Assembly: GCF_055900595.2 (NCBI RefSeq)
Contig: NZ_CM148325.1
Length of the DNA: 64,000 nucleotides
Reading direction: 5' to 3' (one strand)
Every line of letters begins with the position of its first letter. The first letter of the stretch is position 1. The notes beneath the pieces are model-generated. The model saw only the letters and a list, made by a program, of their open reading frames with translations, was not told the origin of the DNA and made no database searches. Positions 11,813 through 46,912 of this stretch are shown one piece after another. A program made the translations under genes and the position numbers.

Positions 11813-12574
11813 ATGCAATTGAGCAGCAGTGAACCTTGCGTGGTGATCCTGACCGAAAAAGAGGTAGAGGTAAGCGTCAATAACCATGCTACGTTTACCC
11901 TTCCGAAAAACTACCTGGCCGCCTTCGCGTGCAACAATAACGTCATTGAACTCTCAACGTTAAATCACGTATTAATCACCCACATCAACCGTAACATCAT
12001 CAACGATTATCTGTTGTTTTTAAATAAGAACTTAACCTGTGTAAAGCCCTGGTCGCGGCTGGCTACCCCGGTTATCGCTTGTCATAGCCGTACACCGGAA
12101 GTGTTCCGGCTAGCCGCCAACCACAGCAAGCAGCAACCCAGCAAACCCTGCGAAGCGGAGTTGACGCGCGCATTGCTTTTTACCGTATTGTCTAACTTTC
12201 TTGAGCAATCGCGGTTTATTGCCCTACTGATGTATATCTTACGCAGCAGCGTCCGCGACAGCGTCTGCCGCATTATTCAAAGCGATATTCAGCATTACTG
12301 GAATCTGCGAATTGTCGCCAGTTCGCTATGTTTAAGCCCCAGCCTGCTCAAAAAGAAATTAAAAAACGAAAATACCAGCTATAGCCAGATTGTCACAGAG
12401 TGTCGTATGCGTTACGCCGTACAGATGTTATTGATGGATAACAAAAATATCACTCAGGTAGCGCAATTATGTGGCTATAGCAGCACGTCGTACTTTATCT
12501 CTGTTTTTAAGGCGTTTTACGGCCTGACACCGTTGAATTATCTCGCCAAACAGCGACAAAAAGTGATGTGGTGA
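11813..12574 (+). CDS. envY: EnvY AraC-family transcriptional regulator (porin thermoregulation)
   Basis: 253-aa ORF with C-terminal AraC-type HTH (QVAQLCGYSSTSYFISVFKAFYGLTP); AT-rich gene. Confidence 0.85.
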   Translation: MQLSSSEPCVVILTEKEVEVSVNNHATFTLPKNYLAAFACNNNVIELSTLNHVLITHINRNIINDYLLFLNKNLTCVKPWSRLATPVIACHSRTPEVFRLAANHSKQQPSKPCEAELTRALLFTVLSNFLEQSRFIALLMYILRSSVRDSVCRIIQSDIQHYWNLRIVASSLCLSPSLLKKKLKNENTSYSQIVTECRMRYAVQMLLMDNKNITQVAQLCGYSSTSYFISVFKAFYGLTPLNYLAKQRQKVMW

Positions 12575-14040: not shown

Positions 14041-14289
14041 GAACGCCAACTAAAATTTCCCCGAGGTGAAAATCGCCCCGGGGAATAACTAGCCATTTCA
14101 ATGTAACAATTAACCCTTAAAATAAACCCAGAAGGTTATTAACTAAATCACATAGAAAACCATCAATTATAGTGTGTATAAAATAGCCGACAGCAACCCA
14201 ATTACAAATTAATGGTTCCAGAATATCACATCAAAAAACACGCTGTATAATATTATAATTAACATGTAGACAACTTGTAATAAACATTA

Positions 14290-15039
14290 TCAGTCAATTG
14301 TTTTGTTTATTCCATCTGTGACGCCGATTATTTTCTCAAAATAATGAGATGGCGTGACACCATAATAATCTTTAAATGCACATATGAAATATGAAGTACT
14401 GTTATAGCCACATTTCTGGGCTACGACATTGATAGAATAAGAGTTTGAAGTTATGAGTTTTTTTGCATACCTCATCCTAGTATCTCTCAATATTTCAGTA
14501 AATGACGTTCCTTCATCCCTTAATCTTTTTTTTATTAAACTTTCACTCGTATAAATCAATTCCGCAATATCTTTTAAATGCCATTGCCGCTCAATATTAA
14601 AACTGATTATTCCAGTAATTTTACATGTAAATGTATTTATATTTGTTAGTATAAATGAATTTACACTTTCGCGTTTTTTGAACATGGCAAGTAAGGATAT
14701 ACATAGTCTTTCTTTTAACCAAAGGGAGTGTGAGTCTGCTATTTTAATCCCTTCAAACAGAGAAAAAACAAGCGATAATGGAGGTTCCTCTTCAGCAATA
14801 TAGCCATTCTTATCAAGAGTAAATTTGCCAGGCAACTCATTATTCACGTCGATAAAAAAGGATAAACATGTTTTCTTATCTATATCAACAATTCTTAGTT
14901 TAGAGGGGCATACTGGTAACTCTCTTCTAATTTTGTCGCTTACAATAAACAATGAATTTTTTTTGAACGAGATAACTCTCCTGTTTATAATTAAATCAAA
15001 TGATTGACAGATGAAAACTACGGAGCAAACATAATCCAT
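14290..15039 (-). CDS. appY: AppY AraC-family transcriptional activator
   Basis: 249-aa AT-rich ORF with C-terminal AraC HTH ([26 protein letters not shown]). Confidence 0.85.
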
Positions 15040-15714
15040 CTTGCACCTATCATAAAATTAAAACAAGTTGATAGTAGTCAAATAACAGCCAATTAAATAC
15101 ACAATCATAATCAGGATGATGTGCATTTATATTTTTATACACAAAATTATAGTTTGCAAATTTTAATAAGTTTCATTTAAGATTAAATTATTATATGTAT
15201 ATTGTTTTTTATTCTAACGTATTTCAAAGTTACATTTTTCAACGCTTACTATGCTTTTTATTAACATAAACTCACTACAACGCACCTGAAACCTCTTGCT
15301 ATATATATGTCAACCGTTTGAATTTAAAATAAAAAGAGTATCATTTTTACTTGCATTTCTTATCAAGTCACATTCAACAACAGTAAAAAAACATTATTAG
15401 AACCATTCAATTAACAAAAAACCAACATCCAGCTTGCTTAATTTTTCTTTATTAAACGATATTGAAAATCAATTGATAAAATACATCTAAACAACCTTTT
15501 GGGGCGCAAAAGCATAACATCAAACAAACAAATAACACACCGAAAAAACTCACAATTAATAACCTATGATATACATACTGTTTATTATGGTTGAATAAGC
15601 CACTCGATATCTGGTGCTACGGAAGTGTCCACACGGTTTAGCAGCACCCGATACTTTTTCCAGGCTTCCAGCAACGAGTTTTCTTCCTCCGTTGCATATA
15701 CAGCTCACCTTTTT

Positions 15715-16008
15715 TCACCCACGATTAACCAACAGCCAGACCAGCAGACACGCCACCACCGGCACAGCAAAATCCATCAGGCTTGCCACATCCCATGCAC
15801 GTGTATCAAAACCGCCCCACCACGGCATATTCATTCGCTTGCCATGCCCGAACATTTCGATCCAGCGATATTCTGCCTGGGTGTGTTCACGCGCAATGAA
15901 GAACGTACAACCGGCTATCGCCCCGTAAGCCCAGTTTCCGGTAAAAAGACCAACCAGTACCTGCGCAGCCACAGCACAAAGTGCATGAAGGAAAGGTGTT
16001 ATATCCAT
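15715..16008 (-). CDS. Small hydrophobic membrane protein, function unknown, at the end of the tail-fibre remnant
   Basis: 97-aa ORF with two predicted transmembrane stretches; chosen over the overlapping plus-strand ORF 15625-16170 because of coherent hydrophobic segments and co-orientation with neighbouring phage genes. Confidence 0.4.
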   Translation of the reverse strand: MDITPFLHALCAVAAQVLVGLFTGNWAYGAIAGCTFFIAREHTQAEYRWIEMFGHGKRMNMPWWGGFDTRAWDVASLMDFAVPVVACLLVWLLVNRG

Positions 16009-16018
16009 TATTCCTCCT

Positions 16019-16723
16019 TTATCCGATATCGCTTCGGGAAGTTAATAACAACTTTAATTCTGACTCAAGTTCATCAACTCTTTCAGTCAGCTTCTGGATA
16101 TGGTGAATCAGTGGAACAACCAGACGTTCGTACATTACACCTTCGGCAACAAGGCCATTGCTGGAAATAGCTTCAGGAGCATCATCTTCGTTAGCTGGTC
16201 GCCAGTGTACAAACTGAGGGGCAATTTCTCCTACTTCCTCGGCAATCAATCCGTAGAACCCCCAGTCACGCCTGTCATTTTCGCATTGCGACCTGTACCA
16301 CACAGGGCGCATCCTGAAAATGACATCGGCGTGCTCTGAATCTATCGTCTCTACTGAATGTTTATAGCGGATAGACGATGTGGACCGCAGTACAGACGAA
16401 ATTGCAGGGTCAGGATTAAGATAAAGGTTTGCCGCCGCAGTAGTCGTGCCCAACCCCCATAAATAAAACGCTTCGCGGCCAGTCAGCGGGTAAAAATCAC
16501 CGCCATAACGACCGCTTTCCAGATCGTTCGCTTCCACTTTGTTTTTCAGCTTATTATCAACTTCAGTTTTTGTGTATCTGGTGCTGATATCCTGCTTTGC
16601 ACTGGTCATATCAATCTGAAGCGTTGATACTTTTCCGTTAATTGAGGAAATATCTTCCTTAGTTTTACTGACATCTCCCTTTAGCGTGGTGATATCTCCA
16701 GGAATTACTGTCGATGTAGCCAT
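16019..16723 (-). CDS. Phage tail-fibre C-terminal domain protein (coiled-coil plus putative chaperone-like C-terminus)
   Basis: 234-aa ORF; heptad-rich N-terminal half (TTLKGDVSKTKEDISSINGKVSTLQIDMTSAKQDIS) and C-terminal coiled coil typical of tail-fibre/spike tips. Confidence 0.5.
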   Translation of the reverse strand: MATSTVIPGDITTLKGDVSKTKEDISSINGKVSTLQIDMTSAKQDISTRYTKTEVDNKLKNKVEANDLESGRYGGDFYPLTGREAFYLWGLGTTTAAANLYLNPDPAISSVLRSTSSIRYKHSVETIDSEHADVIFRMRPVWYRSQCENDRRDWGFYGLIAEEVGEIAPQFVHWRPANEDDAPEAISSNGLVAEGVMYERLVVPLIHHIQKLTERVDELESELKLLLTSRSDIG

Positions 16724-16732
16724 TTGTCTCCC

Positions 16733-17014
16733 TCACATCCAGCCACGAAGTTGATGCTCAACAACAACCGCGTATTCATCGAATATTGACGGTGTTTTCA
16801 CATCATTAATGATGCGCACGTTTACAAAATATCCGTCTTCCTTAACACATACCGGCTCGCCATCTTCAGTAATTTCCCCGGTTTCTTTGTACACGTTACC
16901 TATCACATCAATGAGAACATTGTTCTGCATCACCTCGTCATCGTCATAACCAATGCTATCCATAAAGGCCGAAAAGTCGGCCTTGTCTGTGAATTTGATA
17001 ATTAAGTCTCGCAT
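16733..17014 (-). CDS. Hypothetical phage protein
   Basis: 93-aa acidic ORF, start overlaps the upstream tail-fibre-like gene stop (operon-like). Confidence 0.4.
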   Translation of the reverse strand: MRDLIIKFTDKADFSAFMDSIGYDDDEVMQNNVLIDVIGNVYKETGEITEDGEPVCVKEDGYFVNVRIINDVKTPSIFDEYAVVVEHQLRGWM

Positions 17015-18024
17015 TATATTACCTCTCCCATTTGTGCATCGGTTAATTCTTTATGCCATATACGAAAATTACGAATGTGACCGAAAAGATGACGTAGACC
17101 GCTATTAGTCTGTCCCCCAATCCTGAAGAAATAACCAGATTTAACACCGACATGATCCGTGGTTTTAGGAGTCCCATGCTGGGCATTGCTAACGAAATGC
17201 ACATTACCAGATTCATTTAAAACAAATCCAAGAACAGATTTTTGTTCAAATAATACTGGCGATACGGCGGCTACTGTACTACCGTTTTTATTGTGCATCG
17301 TAACACCAGGAAATAATGTTGAACTAATAGCAACACTTATATATTGACCCGGAGTTGTGCTCCCACCACTGGTATCAAAAATTCGTGGTGCTGCATTTGG
17401 CGTTTCGTTCCAGTTTGTATGAACTTCAGCTAGAAATGTTAAAGGTGGTGTACCGATATTGTTATTTGTTGGTATATTCACCATATCACTGGCTCTTGTG
17501 ACTGGCGTTGCCTCAGTAATAATAAACGAAGAAGCGCACGAACCGCCTTCGACCTGAGGAGTTGCAACATAAATATAATCATCTGCACCAGTGCTTCCCC
17601 CTTTTGGTGGTGCATATTGCACCATCGCACCGATCATATTTTCTGTATCAAGTGCCTTAATTGTTGCCTCAAAGAAAATCCATTTGCTTGCTTCATTTTT
17701 AACAGCCCTTGCAGTAATACGACTTGCAGCGCCGCCAGTTTTATCAATCGATAAATCTGTCATATTTAAGTAAGCATCACCCAGGAATTTGTAGGTAGAT
17801 CCATCATATTCTTCAAATCGTAATCGACATCTTAAATTTGGAGTCCCACTTTGTACCCTGCATGAGATAGTTACATACTTTTCATCGCCGGTAACATCAT
17901 ATCCTTTGCTTCCAGATACTGTGACAATAGAAATGGCTGAGGTTTGCCCCACCATTTCTGGTTTTAATGTGAATTTTGCGTACTGGAAACCAAAATCATC
18001 TACACCTGATGTATTTAAAATCAT
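17014..18024 (-). CDS. Phage tail fibre / receptor-binding-like protein, 5' end abutting IS1 (possibly truncated)
   Basis: ORF 17014-18048 begins with a non-ATG start inside IS1; first ATG (MILNTSG) at 18024; Gly/Thr/Ser-rich beta-type sequence with C-terminal motif NFRIWHKELTDAQMGEVI resembling lectin-like tail-fibre tips. Confidence 0.5.
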   Translation of the reverse strand: MILNTSGVDDFGFQYAKFTLKPEMVGQTSAISIVTVSGSKGYDVTGDEKYVTISCRVQSGTPNLRCRLRFEEYDGSTYKFLGDAYLNMTDLSIDKTGGAASRITARAVKNEASKWIFFEATIKALDTENMIGAMVQYAPPKGGSTGADDYIYVATPQVEGGSCASSFIITEATPVTRASDMVNIPTNNNIGTPPLTFLAEVHTNWNETPNAAPRIFDTSGGSTTPGQYISVAISSTLFPGVTMHNKNGSTVAAVSPVLFEQKSVLGFVLNESGNVHFVSNAQHGTPKTTDHVGVKSGYFFRIGGQTNSGLRHLFGHIRNFRIWHKELTDAQMGEVI

Positions 18025-18049
18025 ATTTGATGACGGTAATGACTCCAAC

Positions 18050-18553
18050 TTATTGATAGTGTTTTATGTTCAGATAATGCCCGATGACTTTGTCATGCAG
18101 CTCCACCGATTTTGAGAACGACAGCGACTTCCGTCCCAGCCGTGCCAGGTGCTGCCTCAGATTCAGGTTATGCCGCTCAATTCGCTGCGTATATCGCTTG
18201 CTGATTACGTGCAGCTTTCCCTTCAGGCGGGATTCATACAGCGGCCAGCCATCCGTCATCCATATCACCACGTCAAAGGGTGACAGCAGGCTCATAAGAC
18301 GCCCCAGCGTCGCCATAGTGCGTTCACCGAATACGTGCGCAACAACCGTCTTCCGGAGCCTGTCATACGCGTAAAACAGCCAGCGCTGGCGCGATTTAGC
18401 CCCGACATAGCCCCACTGTTCGTCCATTTCCGCACAGACGATGACGTCACTGCCCGGCTGTATGCGCGAGGTTACCGACTGCGGCCTGAGTTTTTTAAGT
18501 GACGTAAAATCGTGTTGAGGCCAACGCCCATAATGCGGGCAGTTGCCCGGCAT
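18050..18553 (-). CDS. insB: IS1 transposase InsB
   Basis: 167-aa ORF identical in character to IS1 InsB ([25 protein letters not shown]...). Confidence 0.95.
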
Positions 18554-18747
18554 CCAACGCCATTCATGGCCATATCAATGATTTTCTGGTGCGTACCGGG
18601 TTGAGAAGCGGTGTAAGTGAACTGCAGTTGCCATGTTTTACGGCAGTGAGAGCAGAGATAGCGCTGATGTCCGGCGGTGCTTTTGCCGTTACGCACCACC
18701 CCGTCAGTAGCTGAACAGGAGGGACAGCTGATAGAAACAGAAGCCAC
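18472..18747 (-). CDS. insA: IS1 protein InsA
   Basis: 91-aa [43 protein letters not shown]..., classic InsA with zinc finger. Confidence 0.95.
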
Positions 18748-18797
18748 TGGAGCACCTCAAAAACACCATCATACACTAAATCAGTAAGTTGGCAGCA

Positions 18798-19430
18798 TCA
18801 CCCATTACCGCCCATAATGATGATATTAGTGACGCCCTCACTAAATTCTGCGTAGCTCTCAATATCATCATTTGGATCAAAAGTTTCTTTATCCTTACCT
18901 GACCACTCAGCACCGCCAGACTGAGTGATGATATTTTGTGGTTTAATATTCCAGTCCAGCTCATAACGTTCAATACCATCGCCCTCAATGATATTTTTCC
19001 CCGTTGTGATTGCCTGAACGGCAAGCCATTCAATACGTGCACGAATAGCTTTAGCCTGATTTACAATCGCCTGTTTAACTTTAATATTACGCGCTCCAAA
19101 AGCATTGTATTGCTCAGGTGATACACCAGCAGGGCGCACAGCTAACTTATTTGGATCAATGCTGCTTTTCGGCTTCATATAGCCTGGACGAATTGTTTTT
19201 GATTCGAACCCTTCGTCACGTGAAACTTTACTACCCACCATAGGAGAACAAAACGCTGCAATTGGGATATTTGGATCGTCGATTGTATCAAGAATAATAT
19301 CGCGCGATTCAAACATTACCGAGCGAGTAAAAAACAAACTGGTAAACAACGCATTTAGTTGTTTTTGTACATCTACAGCATTAACCACCTGTACAAGCTG
19401 AGTAGGCGAATATAAATCAACCATACGCAT
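18798..19430 (-). pseudogene. Divergent lambda-E-family major capsid protein gene, 3' end truncated by IS1
   Basis: From Met at about 19430 the translation aligns with lambda gpE (FFTRSVMFESRD..., PGYMKPK, NIITQSGGAEWSGKDKETFDPNDDIESYA) and terminates at the IS1 junction after NIII, roughly half the length of gpE. Confidence 0.65.
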
Positions 19431-19640
19431 CCTCTTTGCATTCATTAAAAATAATTGTGGATATATGCTATCACCGATATTTGTCATGCGAACACATGCA
19501 ACCGAGTGCAATGTTGTATAAAGTTTTGGGGTGACAACTTCAGTGCGGACAATTAGTGTTAATATCTTCACTCCCTTTGGTCGGGATTTATGTAGCATGC
19601 CGGAAAATTTATTTTTTCTGGCTTTTTTTATTGGCAATAT

Positions 19641-20090
19641 TTAAAACGGGATATCATCTCCCCATTGCTCATTATCTCCCACTGGTGGCTGGCTTCCTTG
19701 CTGATCTGCCTGTTGTTTTGCTCTGTTCAGTGCGTCAGTAGCCTGCCCCTGTTGGCCTTTATTGCCGCCCGGTCGCACCGATCGCGCACTGATTACGCTG
19801 TCTGCGATAACCTGCCAGCCCTGCCGCGTTTCGCCGTTCTGTCCAGTCCACTGGCTCATCTGCATGTTACCCGCCACGCTCAGGAGTTCGCCTTTGTGAT
19901 GCTTTGCCAGCGCGTCGGCTTGTCTGCCAAACGCCAGGACAGATAACCACATCGTCGCCTGACCGTCATCCGACTGACTGCAGGGCAGTGATACCGCCAT
20001 ACGCGCCAGCGTCATGGGGGTGCCCTTGCTGGTCTGTTTTGTCTGCGGGTCGTCCACCAACCGCCCGTAAACTGATATTTGCGCCGTCAT
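19641..20090 (-). CDS. ssb: Single-stranded DNA-binding protein (SSB), phage/plasmid type
   Basis: 149-aa ORF with OB-fold-like N-terminus, Gly/Gln-rich linker and acidic C-terminal tail ending DDIPF. Confidence 0.8.
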   Translation of the reverse strand: MTAQISVYGRLVDDPQTKQTSKGTPMTLARMAVSLPCSQSDDGQATMWLSVLAFGRQADALAKHHKGELLSVAGNMQMSQWTGQNGETRQGWQVIADSVISARSVRPGGNKGQQGQATDALNRAKQQADQQGSQPPVGDNEQWGDDIPF

Positions 20091-20332
20091 GCTGCCTGCT
20101 CTCCGGACTTAATATTGATTGTTGTCACTTCCTCCGCTTCAGCAATCTCCCGTTCGGTCAGAGTGGCAAAGTTTGCAGCCGCCGTTGTCATGAATGCGCT
20201 AATCAGTTCGGGATGTGCTTTCGCGTATCCTTCCCCGGCGTTGCGGTCGATGATTTTTATCGACACCCTTAACCAGTGTTCCGTCAAATCAAGGGCGTGC
20301 GATTGTGATTTTTTTGTGTGCTTCGCTGTCAT
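20087..20332 (-). CDS. Hypothetical protein upstream of ssb
   Basis: 81-aa ORF overlapping the ssb start by 4 nt. Confidence 0.4.
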   Translation of the reverse strand: MTAKHTKKSQSHALDLTEHWLRVSIKIIDRNAGEGYAKAHPELISAFMTTAAANFATLTEREIAEAEEVTTINIKSGEQAA

Positions 20333-20384
20333 AGGCTTTATCTCACAGCAGTAAATTAAAATTTTTGCGTTTTAACCCTTCACC

Positions 20385-20605
20385 TGTTCACCTTTTGATA
20401 TTTTCTCTTTTAATTCATAATGTTAATGGGTGAACAGTTTCACAAAAACTATTCACCAACTGTTCACCACTGTTCACCCTTGAAGCTCAATAAACAATCA
20501 AAAAGGTGAACAGTGAATAGTTTGGTGAACAGTTCATAAATAACTGTTCACCCTATAATATACTGATATAAAAGATATTTATGACAGGGTGAACAGTGGT
20601 GAACA
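20385..20605. repeat. P4-type replication origin/crr-like iteron cluster (TGTTCACC octamers)
   Basis: Nine copies of TGTTCACC / GGTGAACA in both orientations (20385, 20429, 20461, 20471, 20505, 20524, 20545, 20588, 20598) with an AT-rich stretch, immediately 3' of the primase gene. Confidence 0.75.
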
Positions 20606-20619
20606 GTTATTCCATAAGT

Positions 20620-22440
20620 TTAATTTTTGCTATCGTCATTAGTGACCGATACACATGATGGCATCCAGTCTTCTGATTCCTCCGTCAGTGTCACGTTTGA
20701 ACGCAAACCGTGCTTCGTTTTCCGTTTCATATACTCCCTGCCATATTCCGCCATTGCCCCCGGCATATCTTTACCGAAGCGCGTCAGTGTTACAGGTTTA
20801 CCAAACCCATGTGCCCTCATATAAGCCAGATAGGCATGATAGAGATACCTGCGTGGGCTAAATGGCACAATTTCAGCATTACCCACTAACAGGCCATCAC
20901 ACATTACCGATGCCATGAGATAGCCGCAGAAGTCCACCAGCGAATCCCCCTCTCGCTTTATCGCCAGTGCTTCTTCAGATTTCTGCTGCTCATATAACAG
21001 GCGTCTGGCTTCGTCCTGATCATCAAACCGTGTAAGCAGATGACGAATCACTACCGCCAGCTCACCTTCTATTTTTTCCGCCAGCATCGAATCGCGTTCG
21101 TTCTCCGGTACAACTTCCGAAAAATTGAATATCACCCGACGACGTGAGATCCCCCCGCTGCGGTCACTGAATGACATGGCGTTATTGTTAACCGCCAGCA
21201 CTACTGCCGGAATACGCGTTGAATAGGGGGCTTTGTGTTTCGGGTCAATTGCCACCTTGTCACCGCCTGTAATGGCCTTAATCCCTGCCCCATCACCAGC
21301 GTAGCGGGTCATATCCGGCATGATAATCAGCGAAAAGCCAACCACTAACGCACGTTCCCTTGCATCTTCCAGCGCCTTCATGCTTGCTGATACTGTATTA
21401 GCCTTACCCGCCAGCATGGTGCAAATCTCCGCCATCACACTTTTACCACTTCCCCCCGGCCCTGTTACCTCAATGAATAACTGCCAGTCGTACCGGTTCG
21501 CCAGCACCATGAATAATGCCGCCAGTACGCGATCTGCCTTGCGGTCATTCTCAGCCACCGAACGGCGCAACCACTTCCAGAAATTCGGCGCATGTGTTGC
21601 CAGCGTTTCCCCCTCTGCTGGTGGGCTGAAAGGTAATTCACTGGCAATTAACAACCAGTCGTTTTTGTTATGCTCCCGAAAATTACCTGTTCTGGTATCA
21701 AATACCCCGTTACTGAATCCAATCAGGTTACGGGCTGTATTCCCCATTACAGGCAAACTTAACTTCATGGTATCTACCGCCGATTTAATGGCGTTCTGCG
21801 AATAGCTGATCTCCACATCAATGAAAATCTGCGCCATAGCACGCTGTAACTCTTTATCCTGAACCGGCTCCCATACAACGCCGTTGTAATGATGAACGGT
21901 GTCAGAGTCGGCATTGATTGCCAGTTCGCCGCCGTAATGTGCCAGGAGAACTTCACCGCGCTGGCTGGCCCCCATCTGATTCAACGCCAAAGATGAAGCA
22001 CGCTCGTCATTTTTGCGCTCTGCCTTCTTCACTGGCAGTTCAATCACCAGACTTTCCCCATGCTCCGCTTCAGCTTTTAGGCCGACAAGGCGCGGAGTCC
22101 AGTCTTCAGGCTCTCGATCAACAAAGCTACGGTAACAACGTGCTTCCTTTACGCCTGCAATAGCAAGTAATGTCGCAACCTTCGTCAGATTTTTCTCTGC
22201 GATCTTTCCGGCACGATAAACACGCACATAATGACGGCCTTCATCGATAATTTGCATATCATCCAGGTTTTCCAGTTGTTCCGTACCCAGAATTACTGGT
22301 GGTGTATCATCTGCTGCAATATGCTTACCCGCCCATTCATTCCATTCTTTTGCATGGCTCCAGGCATCACTGCCAGCAAAAATGATGACTTCTGTCATTT
22401 TGTCGCGCGGTTGGTATTTTAAGTTCGGAGCACGTTTCAT
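20620..22440 (-). CDS. P4-alpha-family primase/helicase (phage/plasmid primase, P-loop NTPase)
   Basis: 606-aa ORF with Walker A GPGGSGKS and primase C-terminal-type sequence; adjacent to TGTTCACC iterons. Confidence 0.8.
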   Translation of the reverse strand: MKRAPNLKYQPRDKMTEVIIFAGSDAWSHAKEWNEWAGKHIAADDTPPVILGTEQLENLDDMQIIDEGRHYVRVYRAGKIAEKNLTKVATLLAIAGVKEARCYRSFVDREPEDWTPRLVGLKAEAEHGESLVIELPVKKAERKNDERASSLALNQMGASQRGEVLLAHYGGELAINADSDTVHHYNGVVWEPVQDKELQRAMAQIFIDVEISYSQNAIKSAVDTMKLSLPVMGNTARNLIGFSNGVFDTRTGNFREHNKNDWLLIASELPFSPPAEGETLATHAPNFWKWLRRSVAENDRKADRVLAALFMVLANRYDWQLFIEVTGPGGSGKSVMAEICTMLAGKANTVSASMKALEDARERALVVGFSLIIMPDMTRYAGDGAGIKAITGGDKVAIDPKHKAPYSTRIPAVVLAVNNNAMSFSDRSGGISRRRVIFNFSEVVPENERDSMLAEKIEGELAVVIRHLLTRFDDQDEARRLLYEQQKSEEALAIKREGDSLVDFCGYLMASVMCDGLLVGNAEIVPFSPRRYLYHAYLAYMRAHGFGKPVTLTRFGKDMPGAMAEYGREYMKRKTKHGLRSNVTLTEESEDWMPSCVSVTNDDSKN

Positions 22441-22724
22441 TTGTTACCTCCGGCAACTAACATTGCCCGAATTTTGCGGATATAGCCTGCGGCACGCCTC
22501 TGATTATCTGTCTTGCAATTTTTTACCAGAATGAAATCTCTTTCGAACTGCTGACGCGGCATAACACATTCAAAATCATAACCATCACGCAAATAAGAGA
22601 CACGACGATCATCAACCGAAATAATCTTTACCCGATAGCCATAGCTGTCTTTGAAAATATCCCCAAGGCTGATTTTTGAATGAGTTTGACCGCTGGCAAT
22701 AAAGCCAGAAAATTTATTTTTCAT
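22437..22724 (-). CDS. Hypothetical protein of the P4-like module
   Basis: 95-aa ORF overlapping the primase start (operon-like). Confidence 0.45.
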   Translation of the reverse strand: MKNKFSGFIASGQTHSKISLGDIFKDSYGYRVKIISVDDRRVSYLRDGYDFECVMPRQQFERDFILVKNCKTDNQRRAAGYIRKIRAMLVAGGNK

Positions 22725-22727
22725 TTT

Positions 22728-22952
22728 TTATTCTCCGGTATAGCTCTGGTCGTGTATTTTTATAGCTTCATCCAGCTCTTTGATGACAGGATCAAGTAAC
22801 GTAATTAACGCTCCAGCTAAATTAGCATCCCGTTCATCGTGTTCCGCATTTGTTGTCCCATCAAGCCAGGTTGATAAGATTTCTCGCATATTTTTGCCAC
22901 AAACGAGCGCGTTTTCAGCATGTGTCAGCACTTTAAAATAAAGATCATTCAT
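22728..22952 (-). CDS. Hypothetical protein of the P4-like module
   Basis: 74-aa acidic ORF in tandem with downstream genes. Confidence 0.4.
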   Translation of the reverse strand: MNDLYFKVLTHAENALVCGKNMREILSTWLDGTTNAEHDERDANLAGALITLLDPVIKELDEAIKIHDQSYTGE

Positions 22953-23259
22953 GGCACACCTCCTGACGAATACGGGCGGCGAATATCATCACGTAGCCAG
23001 TTGGGGATTGCAGCCGGGCTTCCTGTTCGCTGGCGGCCTCGATGGTAATCACGCGCGGTTGTGCCGTACTCAGGGCGATAAAACGCCAGATGTATTTATT
23101 CAGGTTGTGCGGGTCCCGCCCTTGCGGGTGTGTGGTATGATTTCTCATAGCTACCTCGATACTGTTGCTATCGTTGGTGGTTAGAAGCCCGTTGGTGTTC
23201 CTAGCACCTTCGGGCTTTGCTTTTTTAAGTGCCTCCGTGTTAAGGTGGTCACCTAACAA
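22945..23259 (-). CDS. Hypothetical protein of the P4-like module (true start probably the internal Met at 23148)
   Basis: 104-aa ORF; 5' part overlaps an opposite-strand ORF, so a shorter 67-aa product from 23148 is more plausible. Confidence 0.35.
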   Translation of the reverse strand: MLGDHLNTEALKKAKPEGARNTNGLLTTNDSNSIEVAMRNHTTHPQGRDPHNLNKYIWRFIALSTAQPRVITIEAASEQEARLQSPTGYVMIFAARIRQEVCHE

Positions 23260-23479
23260 TGAAAAGGCTAATTCAATAGGTGGTCACTTGTCAACGATCA
23301 AACGCGATAAAAGTCCTAAGGGTGATGGGCAATCTCCACAATTCAGAATGCGAATTTCTCCAGAGCTAAAAGAGCAATTCGACAAAGAAGCGCAGAGCGA
23401 CGGCATAAGCCTAGCCAACTGGCTTAAAGAATTAGGGCGCAAAGAGCTGCTACGGCGCGGTATTGAACCAAAAGGATAA
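23165..23479 (+). CDS. Putative ribbon-helix-helix DNA-binding protein (true start probably internal)
   Basis: C-terminal 45 residues (QFRMRISPELKEQFDKEAQSDGISLANWLKELGRKELL) fit an Arc/CopG-type RHH pattern; two GGTGGTCAC direct repeats lie just upstream of the likely start. Confidence 0.45.
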   Translation: MLSLVVRSPLVFLAPSGFAFLSASVLRWSPNNEKANSIGGHLSTIKRDKSPKGDGQSPQFRMRISPELKEQFDKEAQSDGISLANWLKELGRKELLRRGIEPKG

Positions 23480-23506
23480 GAATAATTGAAGTCAAGGAGC
23501 TAACAC

Positions 23507-23863
23507 ATGAAATACGAATTCTTCGCAACAAGTAGCAGTAGTTTGGATGTATACATAGTCACTGTATCAAACGATTCTGGCTCTCTAATCATGACTTGTA
23601 ATTGTCCAGCAGGAAGTAAAGGTATTCTATGTAGACACCGTAAAGCTTTAATTACCGGAAAAATCCGCGGTATATTCACTCCCCCAAGAAGGAATAATCC
23701 CGAAAAATTACAAGAAGCTATAAATTTAATAGCCACATATGGCATAGATAAAACATTAAAGTTGTACACTGATGAGTTAGAACGAGCAGAACAGACTTGG
23801 ATAAGTGTTCGCGATAATTTGAGAGCAATGATAAACGCTCTTGTTGAACCACCTAAATATTGA
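23507..23863 (+). CDS. Small SWIM-zinc-finger-like protein (cargo gene)
   Basis: 118-aa AT-rich ORF with CxC-x8-CxH motif (CNCPAGSKGILCRH); followed by a hairpin terminator. Confidence 0.55.
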   Translation: MKYEFFATSSSSLDVYIVTVSNDSGSLIMTCNCPAGSKGILCRHRKALITGKIRGIFTPPRRNNPEKLQEAINLIATYGIDKTLKLYTDELERAEQTWISVRDNLRAMINALVEPPKY

Positions 23864-23929
23864 ACTGTTCACATTGCCTATCAGGCGATAACCTCGTATT
23901 CTGATTAAGGCTAACTATATACTCACATT

Positions 23930-23955
23930 GGCGACCAATTCTGGTCGCCTTTATC
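23930..23955. terminator. Hairpin between two convergent cargo genes (likely bidirectional intrinsic terminator)
   Basis: GGCGACC-aattct-GGTCGCC stem-loop followed by TTTATC; sits between the convergent 118-aa and 284-aa genes. Confidence 0.55.
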
Positions 23956-23994
23956 TACCATTTTTATAATATCATAGATTAAGAGTGTTAATCC

Positions 23995-24849
23995 TTACCC
24001 CCTGAATGGAATTGATGAGGATTTAATTTCCACAGAACCAAATCCTCTTGAATCCAAAAACATTTTTATACCAGCCTCAATAAAATCATAATCGCTTGTC
24101 GGGCCAATTGTAATGCTTTTAATTGGTAACTTTCTATTATCTTTATTATTAATAATGATATAAGGGATGATACCATTATTATTTATTCTAAATTTCACAT
24201 CTGGCATTTGTATCCACGGAGTAAACACCAGTCTAAATTCATTTTCTTCGATAAAACTAGGATGTTTAAAAAATGGGATATATTTAGATATAAATTGATA
24301 CGTAGAGACCATTGTTACAAAATGATCATTCATTTCTTTAATGTTAATACCATTACAAGAAAAAAACTCATCCAACTCCTTACTCATCTTTGTAATATCG
24401 TCATTATTTGAATATATAACATCATGTGCAACACAATTTAAATAAATATTTTGACAAAAACTCACAAGTTCATCCGCATCAAATTCAATGCAAACGCCCT
24501 GTTTATTTCCGTAACCTCTCCACTGACTTAACTTATCGTTTTCTTTACAAAAAGATATGCTATAAACATGTTTATCAATCCCTTTTTCTTTTTGTAACTT
24601 CCCTTTCTCATACATGTCAAGAGACTTGAGCAAAATAGTTTTCTTATCTTTTGGGATGATATTATCATCAACTATTTTAATTGTATTTCGAAAACATTCA
24701 CATCCATGGTTAGACTCCTCTTTATCATTTAAGAAATATATATTTGTAGCCCATAAAGAATTAGAGTCTAATATACCTTTCAAACCAAAAAGATCTGTAT
24801 AATGAAATATAGCCACAATGCCCCACCTAATAGTTAAGTCGTTTCCCAC
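23995..24849 (-). CDS. DUF2971-like protein (candidate anti-phage cargo gene)
   Basis: 284-aa very AT-rich ORF; motifs FHYTDLFGLKGIL, YFLNDKEE, SISFC...LSQWRGYGN..GVCIEFD resemble my recollection of DUF2971; overlaps the alpA stop (co-transcribed). Confidence 0.5.
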   Translation of the reverse strand: MGNDLTIRWGIVAIFHYTDLFGLKGILDSNSLWATNIYFLNDKEESNHGCECFRNTIKIVDDNIIPKDKKTILLKSLDMYEKGKLQKEKGIDKHVYSISFCKENDKLSQWRGYGNKQGVCIEFDADELVSFCQNIYLNCVAHDVIYSNNDDITKMSKELDEFFSCNGINIKEMNDHFVTMVSTYQFISKYIPFFKHPSFIEENEFRLVFTPWIQMPDVKFRINNNGIIPYIIINNKDNRKLPIKSITIGPTSDYDFIEAGIKMFLDSRGFGSVEIKSSSIPFRG

Positions 24850-25064
24850 TCACCTCGAATCCATGCCTGCACTTCTGAAAGACGATATGCAACAGCAGTG
24901 GAACCAATCTTGATCCGCTTAGGAAATTTTCCTTCCTTCTCCAGCTTCCAGCGTGTGCTGTTCGCAAGAGTGGTTAGCTCCCGACATTCTTTCTCACGGA
25001 TCATACGATCGATGTTAGGAATGTACTCCAGACCCTTTTTATCAACAATTGCCATTTTTTTCAT
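24834..25064 (-). CDS. alpA: AlpA-family phage transcriptional regulator/excisionase-like HTH protein
   Basis: 76-aa ORF directly downstream of the integrase, sequence pattern (ELTTLANSTRWKLEKEGKFPKRIKIGSTAVAYRLSEVQAWI) typical of AlpA. Confidence 0.8.
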   Translation of the reverse strand: MKKMAIVDKKGLEYIPNIDRMIREKECRELTTLANSTRWKLEKEGKFPKRIKIGSTAVAYRLSEVQAWIRGEWETT

Positions 25065-25065
25065 G

Positions 25066-26352
25066 TTAACCAGCCTTTTGTTTGAGGATTGTCACTTTTG
25101 AATCAGCACCTGCGATGCTATTGAGATATGTAGTCCAGAGTTCCAGAGCATCCAGTTTTTTAGCCATAAACTTACTCCGGTTGTAAACACCCGCCACGCC
25201 AGGTAGCGCATGGCCTAACAGTTGTTCTACTACATAAAATTCAACACCGAGATCACTTAGATGAGTAGATAGCGTTCTTCTAAGGTCGTGTAGTGACCAT
25301 TGTTTTTCATGGCCCAAACGTTTACCGATTTTCCCCCCAATCTTGCTTACGCTTTCTCTAATTCGCAGACTTCCCAGCACATAACCAGTATGTTTTGTCT
25401 CTTCGTGAACATCCGTTACCCACTGTCGTAGAATTTCAGGTACTGGTCTGACGATTTCAACACCAGTTTTTGAGTGATCTTTTGGTACCGTCCAAACCCA
25501 ACTTTCGAGATCCCATTCGCTCCATTCAGATAATCGGGCTTCACTCATTCGACATCCAAATACTGTACAAAGCACAAACATTTTTCGCGTGTATTCAGAC
25601 ATTAGTTTTAAATCAGGCTCGACAAAAATTGCCTTCCAGAGCTGGCCGAGTTCGGCTTCATCCAGAACCCGATCCCGCTTACCTGCAATCTGCCCCACAT
25701 CACTCATGCGCAAATCCTTTAAAGCATCACACGTCGCGTACTGGCGTACCCGACAAAAACGAAGAGCTAATTTAGTGTCAGAAAAAACATACGCCGCCAT
25801 AACTGGTGCATTACGTTTAATTCGGTCAAAACAGTCCAGCCATTCATATAGGTGAGTGTCATTTACGGGCAAATGACCGATATAGGGAAAGATATGCTTT
25901 CGAAATCTGCCAAGCGTTACAGCATGAGTTTTACGACGCACCTTACAGTAATTTTCATACCAGTAATTTAGTGCATCCTCCACTGTGACCGGCTTTAAGC
26001 GTTCTTCAGCCTGAATCTTAATCTGGATACGCGGATCACGTTTGTCAGCCAACCAACCACGGCACTCGTCGCGCTTTTCCCTTGCCTGTTTGAGTGACAT
26101 ATCAGGATATTTACCCAACGTTAGCCAGACCGGAGCAGCCCGGCCACCTGCTAACCTGTAGAAGAAAACAAAGCTCACAGCCCCTTTAGTACTCACACGA
26201 ATAGAAAGCCCCTTTCCATCAGCAATGGTGATCTGCTTTTCTCTGGGTTTCCCCAGATATCCTTTAAGCGCTTTGTCGCTCAGTTTGTTCTCGCCAGCCA
26301 TTTTTAGCCCCAAAAAGCAATACAAGCTGCAATACAGAGATGATTGCAACAC
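25066..26352 (-). CDS. Tyrosine recombinase/integrase (P4-type)
   Basis: 428-aa ORF with C-terminal catalytic region containing HDLRRT and LLGHA...Y motifs; int-alpA arrangement typical of P4-like islands. Confidence 0.85.
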   Translation of the reverse strand: MLQSSLYCSLYCFLGLKMAGENKLSDKALKGYLGKPREKQITIADGKGLSIRVSTKGAVSFVFFYRLAGGRAAPVWLTLGKYPDMSLKQAREKRDECRGWLADKRDPRIQIKIQAEERLKPVTVEDALNYWYENYCKVRRKTHAVTLGRFRKHIFPYIGHLPVNDTHLYEWLDCFDRIKRNAPVMAAYVFSDTKLALRFCRVRQYATCDALKDLRMSDVGQIAGKRDRVLDEAELGQLWKAIFVEPDLKLMSEYTRKMFVLCTVFGCRMSEARLSEWSEWDLESWVWTVPKDHSKTGVEIVRPVPEILRQWVTDVHEETKHTGYVLGSLRIRESVSKIGGKIGKRLGHEKQWSLHDLRRTLSTHLSDLGVEFYVVEQLLGHALPGVAGVYNRSKFMAKKLDALELWTTYLNSIAGADSKVTILKQKAG

Positions 26353-26433
26353 ACAGATAACGAGGAAAATTCAGTGAAAGCACCAGATAAACTTATTCTT
26401 TATTATCAAAAGATTAAGTGTAAAAACCAGCAA

Positions 26434-26709
26434 CTACACGAAAGCCTCAGAAAGCCATGCTAAGTGCTTGGGTTTGACATAACCCGGCGTAAATTCAGAG
26501 GTGGAGCCGCCACGGGATCGGATAACCTCACCGGAAACAATCGGCGAAACGTACAGCGCCATGTTTACCAGTCCCGGAATTTGTGAGAGATAGACTTTTT
26601 CCGTGGTGAAAGGATAGGTTTCACGGAAAAACAGGCGCAGAAACAGCGGATCGAACTTAAAGTGATGCTGGGTCGATGCCAGTAATTCTGCAGTTGTATA
26701 TACAGACAT
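26434..26709 (-). pseudogene. E: Lambda major capsid protein E, N-terminal ~80 codons only (truncated)
   Basis: MSVYTTAELLASTQHHFKFDPLFLRLFFRETYPFTTEKVYLSQIPGLVNMALYVSPIVSGEVIRSRGGSTSEFTPGYVKPKH is near-identical to lambda gpE N-terminus, then diverges and stops. Confidence 0.85.
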
Positions 26710-26764
26710 AAATTATTTCCATAAAAAAAGCCGCACAGGCGGCCTTTGTTGATGAAGGGGAAGA

Positions 26765-27097
26765 TTAAACGATGCTGATTGCCGTTCCGGCAAACGCGGT
26801 CCGTTTTTTAGTCTCGTCGCTGGCAGCCTCCGGCCAGAGCACATCCTCATAACGGAACGAGCCGGACTTGTAGAACGTCAGTGTGGTGCTGGTCTGGTCA
26901 GCAGCAACCGCCAGAATGCCAACGGCTGCACCGTCGGTGGTGCCATCCCACACAACCAGCTTACGGGTAGTGCCATCCAGCATCAGCGGGGTCATTGCAG
27001 GCGTTTTCGCACTCAATCCGCCAGGCGCAATTGCTGTATGAGCCGGATCACTGTTACCCAGCGGCTGGTAATGGTTAAACTCTTCTTTTGTCGCCAT
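26765..27097 (-). CDS. D: Head decoration protein D
   Basis: 110-aa ORF closely matching lambda gpD ([14 protein letters not shown]...FAGTAISIV). Confidence 0.9.
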
Positions 27098-27106
27098 AAC
27101 TGCCTC

Positions 27107-28418
27107 TTATACCGGTAAAGCTTCAGGTGTATTAAGTAATTCTTTATTGGTATCAGATGCCAGGTTACCTGCAGCCAGCGGTGCCGGTGCACCCTGCATC
27201 AGACGATCCAGCGCAGTGTCACTGCGCGCCTGTGCACTCTGTGGTGCTGCAGCCAGAATGCGGCGGGCCGTTTCCACGGTCATTCCGGGGGTTTCGGCCA
27301 GAACGCGCGCCTGTTCTTCGCGTCCGTGAGCCTCCTCACAGTTGAGGATCCCCATAATGCGGCTGTTTTCTGCCGCAACCGCTGCGGTGATCTGCGCGTT
27401 CACGTCCGGCTGCGCCGCGCTGGCGTTTTCGCCCTCCGTCGCTGGCACCACGTCAGTAACGTCAGCCTGCGAAGCAGTGGCTGAAACAGTTGTTGATTGA
27501 GTCTCTTTGGTCATTCGCCCTCCTGAGAGACGGGATTTACGCGCATCCAGTGCATCACGCATGACGGTGATCGCATCGGTGCTGTTAACAAGTTCATCAG
27601 CCAGTCCGGCATCAATGGCCTCCTGACCGCTGTACACTGCAGCCTCGGTATCCAGCACAGCCTGCACAGACAGGCCGGTATATGCCGACACCTTCTGCGC
27701 AAACATCTGGCGGGTTGCGTCCATCCGGGACTGCAGTGTCTCCCGGACGTCATCCGGAAGATGGCTGTAGGGATTGCCATCCACCTTATGGCTGCCGCTG
27801 TAAATCAGCGTGATTTCCACACCCTGTTTCTCCAGGGCAGCACCGTAATTACTGTGAGCCATCATGACGCCGATGGAGCCTGTCCGGGCGGTCTGCGTGA
27901 CCAGACGCCGGGAGGCGGCACTGGCAAGCAGCTGACCTGCACTGCAGTTCATGTCGTTGGCCAGCGCCCATACCGGTTTTATGTCACGCACACGGGCGAT
28001 GATGTCAGCGCAGTCAAATGCCCCCGCCACCATTCCGCCTGGCGTGTCCATATCGAGCAGAATGCCGTCCACCATCGGGTCGCTGGCAGCCTGTTGCAGA
28101 CGGGCGATAATGCCGTTGTAACCGGTCATCCCCGAGTACGGCTGCAGCGCCCGCGTCCGGCTGACCAGCGTGCCGGACACCGGCAGCACGGCGATGCCGT
28201 TCATGACCTGATAACTGCGGGCCTGTCGTGGTCCGTCATCATCACCGGATAATGCCAGCGTCGCGAGTGCCTCCTGGGCAGTCAGGCTGTCGCCGGACAC
28301 CGCATCCGTCAGGCGGCTGATCCCAAGCTGGCCTGCAAGCGCACAAAAGAAAACCCGCGCATAGGCGGGTTCAAGCATCAGCGGCTCATTAAAGGCCATG
28401 CTGGCAATATGCGGGAGA

Positions 28419-28438
<20 letters not shown>
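27107..28438 (-). CDS. C: Head maturation protease/scaffold C (S49 family; Nu3 nested)
   Basis: ORF 27107-28552; start placed at the codon giving VTAELRNLPHIASMAFNEPL as in lambda gpC; overlaps portal gene end. Confidence 0.85.
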
Positions 28439-32119
<3,681 letters not shown>

Positions 32120-32145
<26 letters not shown>

Positions 32146-32665
32146 TCAGCAACCCCGGTATCAGTTCATCCAGCGCGGCTGCTTTGTTCATGGCTTTGAT
32201 GATATCCCGTTTCAGGAAATCAACATGTCGGTTTTCCAGTTCCGGAAAACGCCGCTGCACCGACAGGGGGATCCCGTCGAGAATACTGGCAATTTCACCT
32301 GCGATCCGCGACAGCACGAAAGTACAGAATGCGGTTTCCACCACTTCAGCGGAGTCTCTGGCATTTTTCAGCTCCTGTGCGTCGGCCTGTGCACGCGTAA
32401 GTCGGTGGCGTTCGTACTCAATAGTCCCTGGCTGGAGATCTGTCTCGCTGGCCTGCCGCAGTTCTTCAACTTCCCGGCGCAGCTTTTCGTTCTCAATTTC
32501 AGCATCCCTTTCGGCATACCATTTTATAACGGCGGCAGAGTCATAAAGCACCTCATTACCCTTGCCACCGCCTCGCAGAACGGGCATTCCCTGTTCCTGC
32601 CAGTTCTGAATGGTACGGATACTCGCACCGAAAATGTCAGCCAGCTGCTTTTTGTTGACTTCCAT
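32120..32665 (-). CDS. nu1: Terminase small subunit Nu1
   Basis: 181-aa ORF MEVNKKQLADIFGASIRTIQNWQEQGMPVLRGGGKGNEVLYDSAAVIKWY matching lambda Nu1. Confidence 0.9.
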
Positions 32666-32699
32666 TGTTCATTCCACGGCCAAAAACAGAGAAAGGAAA

Positions 32700-32870
32700 C
32701 GACAGAGGCCCAAAAGTTCGTTTTCAGCACCTGTCGCTTCCTTTCTTTTCAGGGGGTATTTTAAATAAAAACATTAAGTTACGACGAAGAAGAACGGAAA
32801 CGCCTTAAACCGGAAAATTTTCATAAATAGCGAAAACCCGCGAGGTCGCCGCCCCGTAACCTGTCGGATC
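32700..32870 (-). other. cos site region (cosB plus cosN)
   Basis: Reverse complement of 32843-32854 is GGGCGGCGACCT, the lambda 12-nt cohesive end, followed by sequence matching the lambda left end (cosB) upstream of Nu1. Confidence 0.8.
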
Positions 32871-46817: not shown

Positions 46818-46912
46818 TTCGACATAAATTCAACAAGTTAACTTTGGCTTCAAAAAAGCATCGATAACATTGCATTATATTTTTCCTTTTGTCTAACTTA
46901 AAAGGATGAACA

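What the first reader, a model, noticed from the sequence alone, without database searches (positions are those of the whole stretch)
18803..26433. P4-satellite-like replicon embedded inside a lambdoid prophage in place of the tail genes, between two capsid-E fragments
The prophage has cos, Nu1, A, W, B, C and D nearly intact in lambda order, but E stops after about 80 codons (26434-26709). The next 7.6 kb is not the tail genes Fi through J. Instead it holds a P4-type integrase, alpA, cargo, three small ORFs, a P4-alpha-type primase, a TGTTCACC iteron origin, an SSB gene and a second, divergent capsid-E gene that is itself cut by IS1. No tRNA or obvious att core flanks the integrase, so this does not look like a simple site-specific insertion. 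The arrangement (own replication plus partial capsid genes, no tails) is reminiscent of capsid-encoding satellite islands, but here the capsid genes are disrupted.
Basis: partly seen in the sequence, partly recalled or inferred. Interest (0 to 1): 0.6.

Follow-up and report, generated by a model that had tools for sequence, protein, structure and literature searches.

The report
IS1-truncated helper-embedded phage satellite (HE-PICI)

Summary
Window 18803-26464 holds int, alpA, two cargo genes, three small ORFs, a D5/P4-alpha-like replicase, a TGTTCACC iteron origin, ssb and the first 207 codons of a second lambda-E-family capsid gene. It lies between IS1 (18035-18802) and the first 82 codons of the prophage's gene E.

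[quoted passage not shown] Its integrase and attL are 99.7% identical to the published type element Eco567.11capE of E. coli NRG857c (Tommasini et al. 2023, PMC10111431).

The insertion is site-specific, at E codons 79-82. The core AACCCAAGCA and the doubled TGTATTGC arm motif are both present in the window. An empty attB exists in strain JA0265.

The satellite did not replace the tail genes. Against strain 980-2, which has the full prophage plus satellite at the same argU locus, the window lacks 17,788 bp exactly at the left end of an IS1 that has no target duplication. The lost DNA includes attR, the cos-like block, the decoration gene, the 3' part of E and tail genes FI to J.

The remnant should be unable to excise or be packaged. 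173 of 5,426 complete E. coli genomes carry this integrase-attL-E' junction. The element is already known, so interest is low.

The parts
17014..18034 (-). 3' remnant (about 340 codons) of the prophage side tail fibre gene stf; this is the left deletion endpoint
   Evidence: 100% identical to L005 (strain 980-2) 25001-29035. There the gene is an intact 794-aa 'prophage tail fiber N-terminal domain' protein at 28015-30399.
18035..18802 (-). IS1 (768 bp) with no flanking 9-bp target duplication; it joins stf to the satellite capsid gene
   Evidence: Both terminal inverted repeats found. InsA and InsB ORFs at 18472-18747 and 18050-18553. Flanks are TTTGATGAC and CATTACCGC.
18803..19424 (-). Satellite's own major capsid gene, first 207 of 346 codons, cut by IS1
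   Evidence: PHROG 29 major head protein 3e-46. Pfam Phage_cap_E 5.7e-21. The full gene in L001 (14582-15622) encodes a protein 41.5% identical to helper gpE.
19641..20090 (-). ssb, intact at 149 aa
   Evidence: PHROG 44 7e-38. Same length as the RefSeq SSB in L001.
20087..20332 (-). Conserved 81-aa ORF of unknown function in the replication zone
   Evidence: PHROG 1231 2e-48.
20385..20605 (.). Replication origin with nine TGTTCACC iterons in both orientations
   Evidence: 9 of the window's 10 copies lie here. 0 of 100 shuffles reach 10 copies.
20620..22440 (-). Replicase ('primase'), 606 aa, D5_N + DUF5906 (SF3 helicase) + Pox_D5
   Evidence: PHROG 864 DNA primase 6e-186. Pfam domains.
22437..22724 (-). 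DUF4222 protein, 95 aa
   Evidence: PHROG 285. RefSeq name in L001.
22728..22952 (-). 74-aa hypothetical protein
   Evidence: PHROG 2196 4e-35.
22945..23259 (-). Icd-like / repressor-like small ORF; RefSeq calls the 3' 204 bp
   Evidence: PHROG 6196 1e-53. 'Icd-like' in L001 and L003.
23507..23863 (+). Variable-zone cargo: SWIM zinc-finger protein, 118 aa
   Evidence: PHROG 13130 and RefSeq name. The zone 23093-24844 is replaced by other genes in 11capE of NRG857c.
23995..24849 (-). Variable-zone cargo: DUF2971 protein, 284 aa
   Evidence: RefSeq name. PHROG 1762. Weak PADLOC hit to PDC-S31, 2e-4.
24834..25064 (-). alpA (excisionase/regulator), 76 aa
   Evidence: Pfam Phage_AlpA 3.7e-15. PHROG 2790.
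25066..26301 (-). Tyrosine integrase of the 11capE clade, 411 aa, intact
   Evidence: Pfam domains. The int+attL+E' stretch is 99.7% identical to NRG857c.
26317..26336 (-). Doubled TGTATTGC arm motif on the int-proximal side of attL
   Evidence: Minus-strand sequence is TGTATTGCAGCTTGTATTGC. It starts about 133 nt from the core centre. The paper gives 132 +/- 2 bp.
26465..26474 (-). attL core (AACCCAAGCA, E codons 79-82); island-specific sequence starts at 26464
   Evidence: Alignment of attB (JA0265), attL (window, L001, L003) and attR (L001, L003, L005).
26465..26709 (-). Helper prophage gene E, first 82 codons; the ORF reads on to a stop codon ending at 26434
   Evidence: 100% identical to the first 245 bp of the intact 341-aa E gene in JA0265.
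26765..32854 (-). Helper head genes D, C, B, W, A, Nu1 and cosN (32843-32854)
   Evidence: ORF lengths. 98% identity to annotated genes in L001. cosN GGGCGGCGACCT found.

Best explanation

Step 1. The satellite integrated by its tyrosine integrase into codons 79-82 of major capsid gene E of a DLP12-family lambdoid prophage at tRNA-Arg (argU). It is co-oriented with the late operon. This step is shown by att comparisons.

Step 2. An IS1 then came to lie in the satellite's own capsid gene at codon 207. The 17,788 bp to its left were lost, either by IS1-mediated adjacent deletion or by recombination with a second IS1. The loss is shown by comparison with strain 980-2 and by the missing target duplication; the exact route is inferred. 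The lost DNA holds the capsid gene 3' third, the decoration gene, a second AlpA-like regulator, the cos-like block, the distal cargo, attR, the 3' part of E, FI, FII, Z, U, V, G, T, H, M, L, K, I, J, lom and the 5' part of stf.

How the intact element works. Induction data for 11capE are published; the rest is inferred by the authors.
- The composite excises and replicates.
- Late transcription probably reads from E' into int and alpA.
- The satellite then excises late, which restores E.
- It replicates from its own iteron origin.
- It is presumed to be packaged through its cos-like site by helper terminase.

The window's copy has lost attR and cos. It should therefore be unable to excise or be packaged, and the helper is left permanently without E and tails. 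Its nine remaining ORFs are still full length, which is consistent with recent decay.
For: Recurrent architecture. In MLI108K3, ET979, NRG857c and 980-2 the order is E'-int-alpA-cargo-icd-DUF4222-primase-ori-ssb-capsid-decoration-HTH-cargo-'E, followed by a full FI-to-J tail set.

Precise insertion. attB, attL and attR share AACCCAAGCA, and the E fragments rebuild gpE.

Identity to the type element. int+attL is 99.7% identical to NRG857c. Shared segments are 99.1% and 98.5% identical.

attP arm motif. The doubled TGTATTGC motif sits at the published distance.

The class, the site, 201 instances at it and inducible excision are published.

IS1 and the deletion. IS1 ends are exact and carry no target duplication. 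The collinear match to L005 breaks at 29035 and resumes at 46824.

No cos-like sequence is left in the remnant, while all intact relatives have one.

ORF lengths equal those annotated in L001.

No minus-strand terminator-like site is predicted between E' and int.
Against: - No wet-lab data exist for this copy.
- The route of the deletion (adjacent deletion versus IS1-IS1 recombination) cannot be told apart from the sequence.
- No sequenced intermediate or identical joint was found in 5,426 complete E. coli genomes, so the order of events is inferred.
- For the class itself, satellite virions were never obtained, so packaging and the role of the satellite's capsid and decoration genes remain presumptions.
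- The promoter/terminator scan is at chance level overall.
Confidence: 0.93

Rival explanations
1. One reading: a P4-like replicon replaced the tail genes by a non-site-specific, illegitimate or mosaic event, leaving two fragments of capsid gene E.
For: In the window alone there is no attR, no tRNA and no tail genes. The integrase, alpA and D5-type replicase resemble those of P4.
Against: - The att core and arm motif are present, and an empty attB is known.
- The tail genes follow the island in relatives.
- The tail loss maps to the IS1 end.
- The second capsid gene is the satellite's own, 41.5% identical to gpE in its full-length form, and not a piece of E.
- There is no sid, psu or delta and no C4/isrK RNA in the island.
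Confidence: 0.03
2. An ordinary mosaic joint: the int-primase-ssb block is a normal part of some intact temperate phage genome.
For: Lambdoid phages are highly mosaic, and PHROG families hit all the genes.
Against: - No phage record among 50,697 contains the block; the only hit is a 78%-identical primase in a 16.5-kb induced element.
- The block is bounded by att sites and interrupts an essential gene.
- Published data show it excises on its own, separately from the prophage.
Confidence: 0.02
3. A capsid-forming PICI (cf-PICI) that builds its own capsids and steals only tails.
For: It carries its own HK97/lambda-E-family capsid gene. In intact copies it also has a decoration gene, and some variants have a TerS.
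Against: Intact relatives lack terL, portal, protease/scaffold and head-completion genes. These must come from the helper.
Confidence: 0.02

Closest known systems
Eco567.11capE, the type HE-PICI of E. coli NRG857c (site group E:Phage_cap_E:80; Tommasini, Mageeney & Williams 2023, PMC10111431)
   Same: - Same integrase and attL (99.7% identity over int+attL+E').
- Same 10-bp core in E codons 79-82 and same doubled TGTATTGC arm motif.
- Same alpA, Icd-like, DUF4222, primase, iteron origin, ssb and capsid gene, at 98.5-99.1% identity.
- Same co-orientation with the helper's late operon.
   Different: - The variable zone 23093-24844 carries SWIM + DUF2971 here, against YlcI + a hypothetical protein in 11capE.
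- The helper sits at argU (DLP12 site) rather than icd.
- The window copy is truncated by IS1 and lacks the capsid 3' third, the decoration gene, the second HTH regulator, the cos-like block, the distal cargo and attR.
Gram-negative PICIs such as EcCICFT073
   Same: - int-alpA-(variable zone)-primase/replication-late zone layout.
- Lambdoid cos helper.
- Packaging presumed to go through a cos site.
   Different: Classical PICIs integrate in chromosomal genes and interact with the helper in trans. This one integrates in the helper's capsid gene.
Satellite phage P4
   Same: Related tyrosine integrase clade, an AlpA-type regulator, a D5/SF3 helicase-type replicase with iteron origin, and an Icd-like gene.
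   Different: - No sid, psu, delta or epsilon.
- No CI/C4 RNA inside the island.
- No Toprim or primase domain detected by Pfam in the 606-aa replicase.
- The helper is lambdoid, not P2-like.
IS1-mediated adjacent deletions, as in cryptic prophage decay such as DLP12 of E. coli K-12 (from general knowledge)
   Same: A complete IS1 without target duplication sits exactly at a deletion endpoint, and the prophage has lost structural genes.
   Different: Here the deletion spans a satellite/helper composite and inactivates both elements at once.

Membership tests
HE-PICI, site group E:Phage_cap_E:80 | Tyrosine integrase of the 11capE clade at the upstream end of the island, reading inward | tested here: met
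   The 411-aa Int has Arm-DNA-bind_3 plus Phage_integrase. The int+attL+E' stretch is 99.7% identical in nucleotides to NRG857c.
HE-PICI, site group E:Phage_cap_E:80 | alpA directly downstream of int and co-oriented with it | tested here: met
   Pfam Phage_AlpA 3.7e-15 at 24834-25064.
HE-PICI, site group E:Phage_cap_E:80 | [quoted passage not shown] | tested here: met
   E' ends at codon 82 and the core spans codons 79-82. All these genes are on the minus strand. An empty attB exists in JA0265.
HE-PICI, site group E:Phage_cap_E:80 | 10-bp identity block present at both attL and attR | tested here: inconclusive
   The attL block AACCCAAGCA is present. attR is deleted in the window. Both are present in L001, L003 and L005.
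HE-PICI, site group E:Phage_cap_E:80 | Doubled TGTATTGC motif 81 bp upstream and 132 bp downstream of the attP centre | tested here: met
   The downstream copy is at 26317-26336, about 133 nt from the core centre. The upstream copy lies on the deleted attR side and is seen in L001 at 11964-11983.
HE-PICI, site group E:Phage_cap_E:80 | Four ordered zones: Integration, Bro/dynamic, Replication, Late | tested here: met
   int-alpA; variable SWIM/DUF2971 plus Icd-like; primase-ori-ssb; capsid gene (truncated). No Bro-N domain protein was seen in this copy.
HE-PICI, site group E:Phage_cap_E:80 | Excision after helper induction that restores the late gene | not testable with these tools
   Shown for 11capE by qPCR and deep sequencing. 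Predicted to be impossible for the window copy because attR is absent.
P4-like satellite | sid, psu and delta (capsid-size and transactivation genes) | tested here: not met
   No such PHROG hits among the window ORFs or the scanned late-zone and distal-cargo ORFs of relatives. None is annotated in the intact islands.
P4-like satellite | CI/C4-type immunity RNA within the element | tested here: not met
   The Rfam gathering scan finds C4 and isrK only at 42216-42398, in the helper's early region, and none in 18803-26464.
P4-like satellite | Alpha-type primase-helicase | tested here: inconclusive
   D5_N, DUF5906 and Pox_D5 helicase and origin-binding parts are present. No primase catalytic domain is detected in residues 1-160.
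Capsid-forming PICI (cf-PICI) | Complete head module (terS, terL, portal, protease, capsid, connectors) | tested here: not met
   Intact relatives carry only a capsid gene and a decoration gene, plus a cos-like block and sometimes a TerS.
IS1-associated deletion | Complete IS1 without a 9-bp target duplication, with collinearity to an intact relative breaking exactly at the IS end | tested here: met
   IS1 is at 18035-18802. Its flanks TTTGATGAC and CATTACCGC differ. L005 29036-46823 is missing.

The most novel reading that the evidence does not exclude
The immobilised remnant may not be mere debris. Nine ORFs are still full length: int, alpA, DUF2971, SWIM, Icd-like, DUF4222, the replicase with its origin, the 81-aa ORF and ssb. 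The remnant is still wired to the helper's late operon. It might act as a fixed module that gives phage defence through its DUF2971/SWIM cargo. It might also drive in-situ origin firing when a superinfecting lambdoid phage supplies antitermination. In addition, the satellite capsid gene may be a recurrent IS1 target, because two independent insertions lie 3 bp apart in different islands.
Probability: 0.1. Interest if true: 0.35.

Novelty: already known. Interest (0 to 1): 0.2.

Why it matters
That phenomenon is already published, including the type element that is nearly identical to this one.

This window adds one documented decay route. A single IS1-linked 17.8-kb deletion disables satellite and helper together. 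It is also a caution for annotation. In such remnants attR is gone and the tail genes are missing, so the element can look like a non-site-specific chimera or a 'capsid-encoding island'.

The open questions about the class cannot be addressed from this truncated copy. These are whether the satellite's own capsid and decoration proteins build its particles, and how its variant cos is used.

Tried and rejected
- P4-like satellite: rejected. No sid, psu or delta, no C4/isrK RNA in the island, and a lambdoid helper.
- cf-PICI: rejected. No terL, portal or protease in intact relatives.
- Part of a known phage genome: rejected. Nothing in the phage collection beyond a 78%-identical primase.
- Same IS1 event as in O121 strain 201805972: rejected. 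That IS1 lies 3 bp away, has its own TACCACCCA duplication and sits in an island only 88% identical.
- Search for the window's exact IS1 joints in 5,426 complete E. coli genomes: none found. All 15 genomes with the stf flank stop matching at the IS1 edge. The source strain and any intermediate therefore remain unidentified. Piece limits in IS1-rich genomes make a lower bound, which is why one search used a query with only 35 bp of IS1.
- Direct-repeat search inside the intact island: it gave mostly chance pairs. Only the doubled arm motif (D5) and the iterons (D2, D7) were meaningful.
- Promoter/terminator scan: counts are at chance level. The only useful point is that no minus-strand terminator-like site lies between E' and int.
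- The 64-aa ORF next to the cos-like block of 11capE as a TerS DNA-binding domain: rejected. Only its first 15 residues match Nu1.

Full report
**1. What is in the window**

The minus strand of 18803-26709 carries the following, in gene order.
- A 91-aa ORF at 26434-26709. Its first 82 residues are lambda gpE-like.
- A 411-aa tyrosine integrase at 25066-26301, with Pfam Arm-DNA-bind_3 and Phage_integrase.
- A 76-aa AlpA at 24834-25064.
- A DUF2971 protein at 23995-24849, and on the plus strand a SWIM zinc-finger ORF at 23507-23863.
- Three small ORFs: Icd-like 22945-23259, a 74-aa ORF at 22728-22952, and DUF4222 at 22437-22724.
- A 606-aa replicase at 20620-22440, with D5_N, DUF5906 and Pox_D5 and PHROG 864 'DNA primase' at 6e-186.
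- A 220-bp intergenic stretch holding 9 of the window's 10 TGTTCACC octamers. None of 100 shuffles reached 10.
- An 81-aa ORF and ssb at 19641-20090.
- The first 207 codons of a second Phage_cap_E-family capsid gene at 18803-19424.

A complete IS1 occupies 18035-18802. Upstream of E' lie D, C, B, W, A and Nu1. Most have lambda-like ORF lengths; the listed C ORF is longer because it starts at an upstream TTG. The lambda cosN GGGCGGCGACCT is at 32843-32854. The true island/E junction is at 26464/26465.

**2. What relatives show**

A search of 5,426 complete E. coli genomes found the region from 18803 rightwards contiguous in many strains. Four were examined: MLI108K3, ET979, NRG857c and 980-2. 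All show the same architecture inside a complete lambdoid prophage:
- Nu1-A-W-B-C-D-E' on one side;
- then int-alpA-variable cargo-Icd-DUF4222-primase-ori-ssb-capsid (346 aa)-decoration (113 aa)-AlpA-like HTH-variable cargo;
- then 'E-FI-FII-Z-U-V-G-T-H-M-L-K-I-J on the other side.

So the island is inserted within gene E, and the tail genes follow it normally.

The E fragments in MLI108K3 (82 codons, and a piece starting PKHEVNPQ...) rebuild gpE exactly. Strain JA0265 has an uninterrupted E whose first 245 bp are 100% identical to the window's E'. Aligning its attB with the window's attL and with attR of three relatives shows a 10-bp shared core, AACCCAAGCA, at codons 79-82. Island sequence starts immediately after it. 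The doubled motif TGTATTGCAGCTTGTATTGC lies at 26317-26336, about 133 nt from the core centre. A second copy lies on the attR side in intact islands.

**3. It is already described**

A literature search found Tommasini, Mageeney & Williams, NAR Genomics and Bioinformatics 2023 (PMC10111431). The paper defines helper-embedded PICIs (HE-PICIs). It reports the following.
- The type example is Eco567.11capE of E. coli NRG857c, an 11-kb island in a lambda-E-like capsid gene that carries its own capsid gene.
- There is a 10-bp identity block at the att sites.
- The doubled motif tgTGTATTGCantgTGTATTGCa lies 81 bp upstream and 132 bp downstream of the attP centre.
- 201 instances occur at site E:Phage_cap_E:80.
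- After mitomycin C, the composite excises and replicates first, and the satellite excises later.
- No virions could be recovered.
- Many helpers look truncated in their chromosomal setting.

NRG857c is my locus L003. The window's int+attL+E' is 99.7% identical to it. The island segments 18803-23092 and 24845-26464 are 99.1% and 98.5% identical. Only the variable zone 23093-24844 differs. In the present collection 173 of 5,426 genomes (3.2%) have int-attL-E' contiguous. No later functional study of the class was found.

**4. Why the tails are missing**

Left of IS1 the window is 100% identical to strains carrying the usual right end of the argU/DLP12 locus: nfrA, ybcH, envY, ompT, appY, tail-fibre assembly remnants and the 3' part of stf. 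Strain 980-2 has, at this same locus, the complete prophage with an HE-PICI in E.

Against it the window matches 14000-18034 to L005 25001-29035, and 18803-21013 to L005 46824-49035. The window therefore lacks 17,788 bp, replaced by IS1. The lost DNA holds:
- the stf 5' part, lom, and J through FI;
- the 3' part of E;
- the island's attR, distal cargo, cos-like block with TerS, second HTH, decoration gene and the 3' third of its capsid gene.

The nine bases on the two sides of IS1 differ (TTTGATGAC versus CATTACCGC). That is expected for an IS1-mediated adjacent deletion or for recombination between two IS1 copies, and not for a simple insertion.

A related island in O121 strain 201805972 has an independent, simple IS1 insertion 3 bp away in its capsid gene, with a TACCACCCA duplication. 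None of the complete genomes shares the window's joints.

**5. Consequences**

Intact relatives carry a 206-559-bp block 88-92% identical to the helper cos region at window 32628-32886. The remnant has none. Without attR and cos, the remnant should neither excise nor be packaged, and the helper is permanently E-negative and tail-less. All nine remaining satellite ORFs have the same lengths as in intact copies, which is consistent with recent decay. No minus-strand terminator-like site lies between E' and int. This agrees with, but does not prove, read-through from the late operon.

**6. Classification**

- It meets the tested defining features of the E:Phage_cap_E:80 HE-PICI group, apart from those removed by the deletion.
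- It is not P4-like as a family. It has no sid, psu or delta, no C4/isrK RNA in the island, and a lambdoid helper.
- It is not a cf-PICI, because relatives have no terL, portal or protease.
- It is not part of any deposited phage genome.

**7. Verdict**

The kind of element is already known and this copy is a degraded instance, so interest is low.

Noticed in passing
window 35868-37200: IS10 lies inside the prophage's nmpC/ompC-like porin gene. Evidence is Rfam RNA-OUT at 35868-35937 (97 bits) and a 402-aa transposase ORF at 35930-37138. The same arrangement occurs in O111:H11 strain 88.0502.
   Followed up: partly
window 42216-42398 (-): A C4 antisense RNA (72.7 bits) and isrK (60.7 bits) lie side by side in the helper prophage's early region. 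In the aligned O111:H11 locus (L007) the corresponding region holds a P22AR C-terminal-domain gene. This RNA immunity-type module belongs to the helper, not to the satellite.
   Followed up: no
window 18802/18803 and L006 14001-14768: Two independent IS1 insertions, in the same orientation and 3 bp apart, hit the satellite capsid gene in two different HE-PICIs. The O121 copy keeps its TACCACCCA duplication. This may be an IS1 hot spot.
   Followed up: partly
L003 10553-10811; L005 44862-45634; compare window 32628-32886: Intact relatives carry a cos-like block 88-92% identical to the helper's. In 11capE the 12-nt cosN differs (GGGCGTCAGGCG versus GGGCGGCGACCT). The 980-2 variant also encodes a full TerS that is 72% identical to helper Nu1 and diverges in its C-terminal third.
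   Followed up: partly
L001 12095-13237; L003 8616-10332; L005 43997-44755: The cargo slot next to attR holds different defence-like genes in different strains. These are a TIR protein, a DUF262/NsnA-like protein plus HEPN, and a DUF2971/PDC-S31-like protein. It behaves like a defence hot spot. This slot is deleted in the window.
   Followed up: partly
L004 17318-19191 (same argU locus in strain Z0117EC0005): The same prophage family has decayed differently here. A truncated Nu1 is fused to a truncated stf, with no head genes and no satellite. This shows repeated independent erosion at this locus.
   Followed up: no
window 20620-22440 (-): The 'primase' has no Pfam-detectable primase catalytic domain. 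Only D5_N, DUF5906 and Pox_D5 are found, and residues 1-160 have no Pfam domain match.
   Followed up: no
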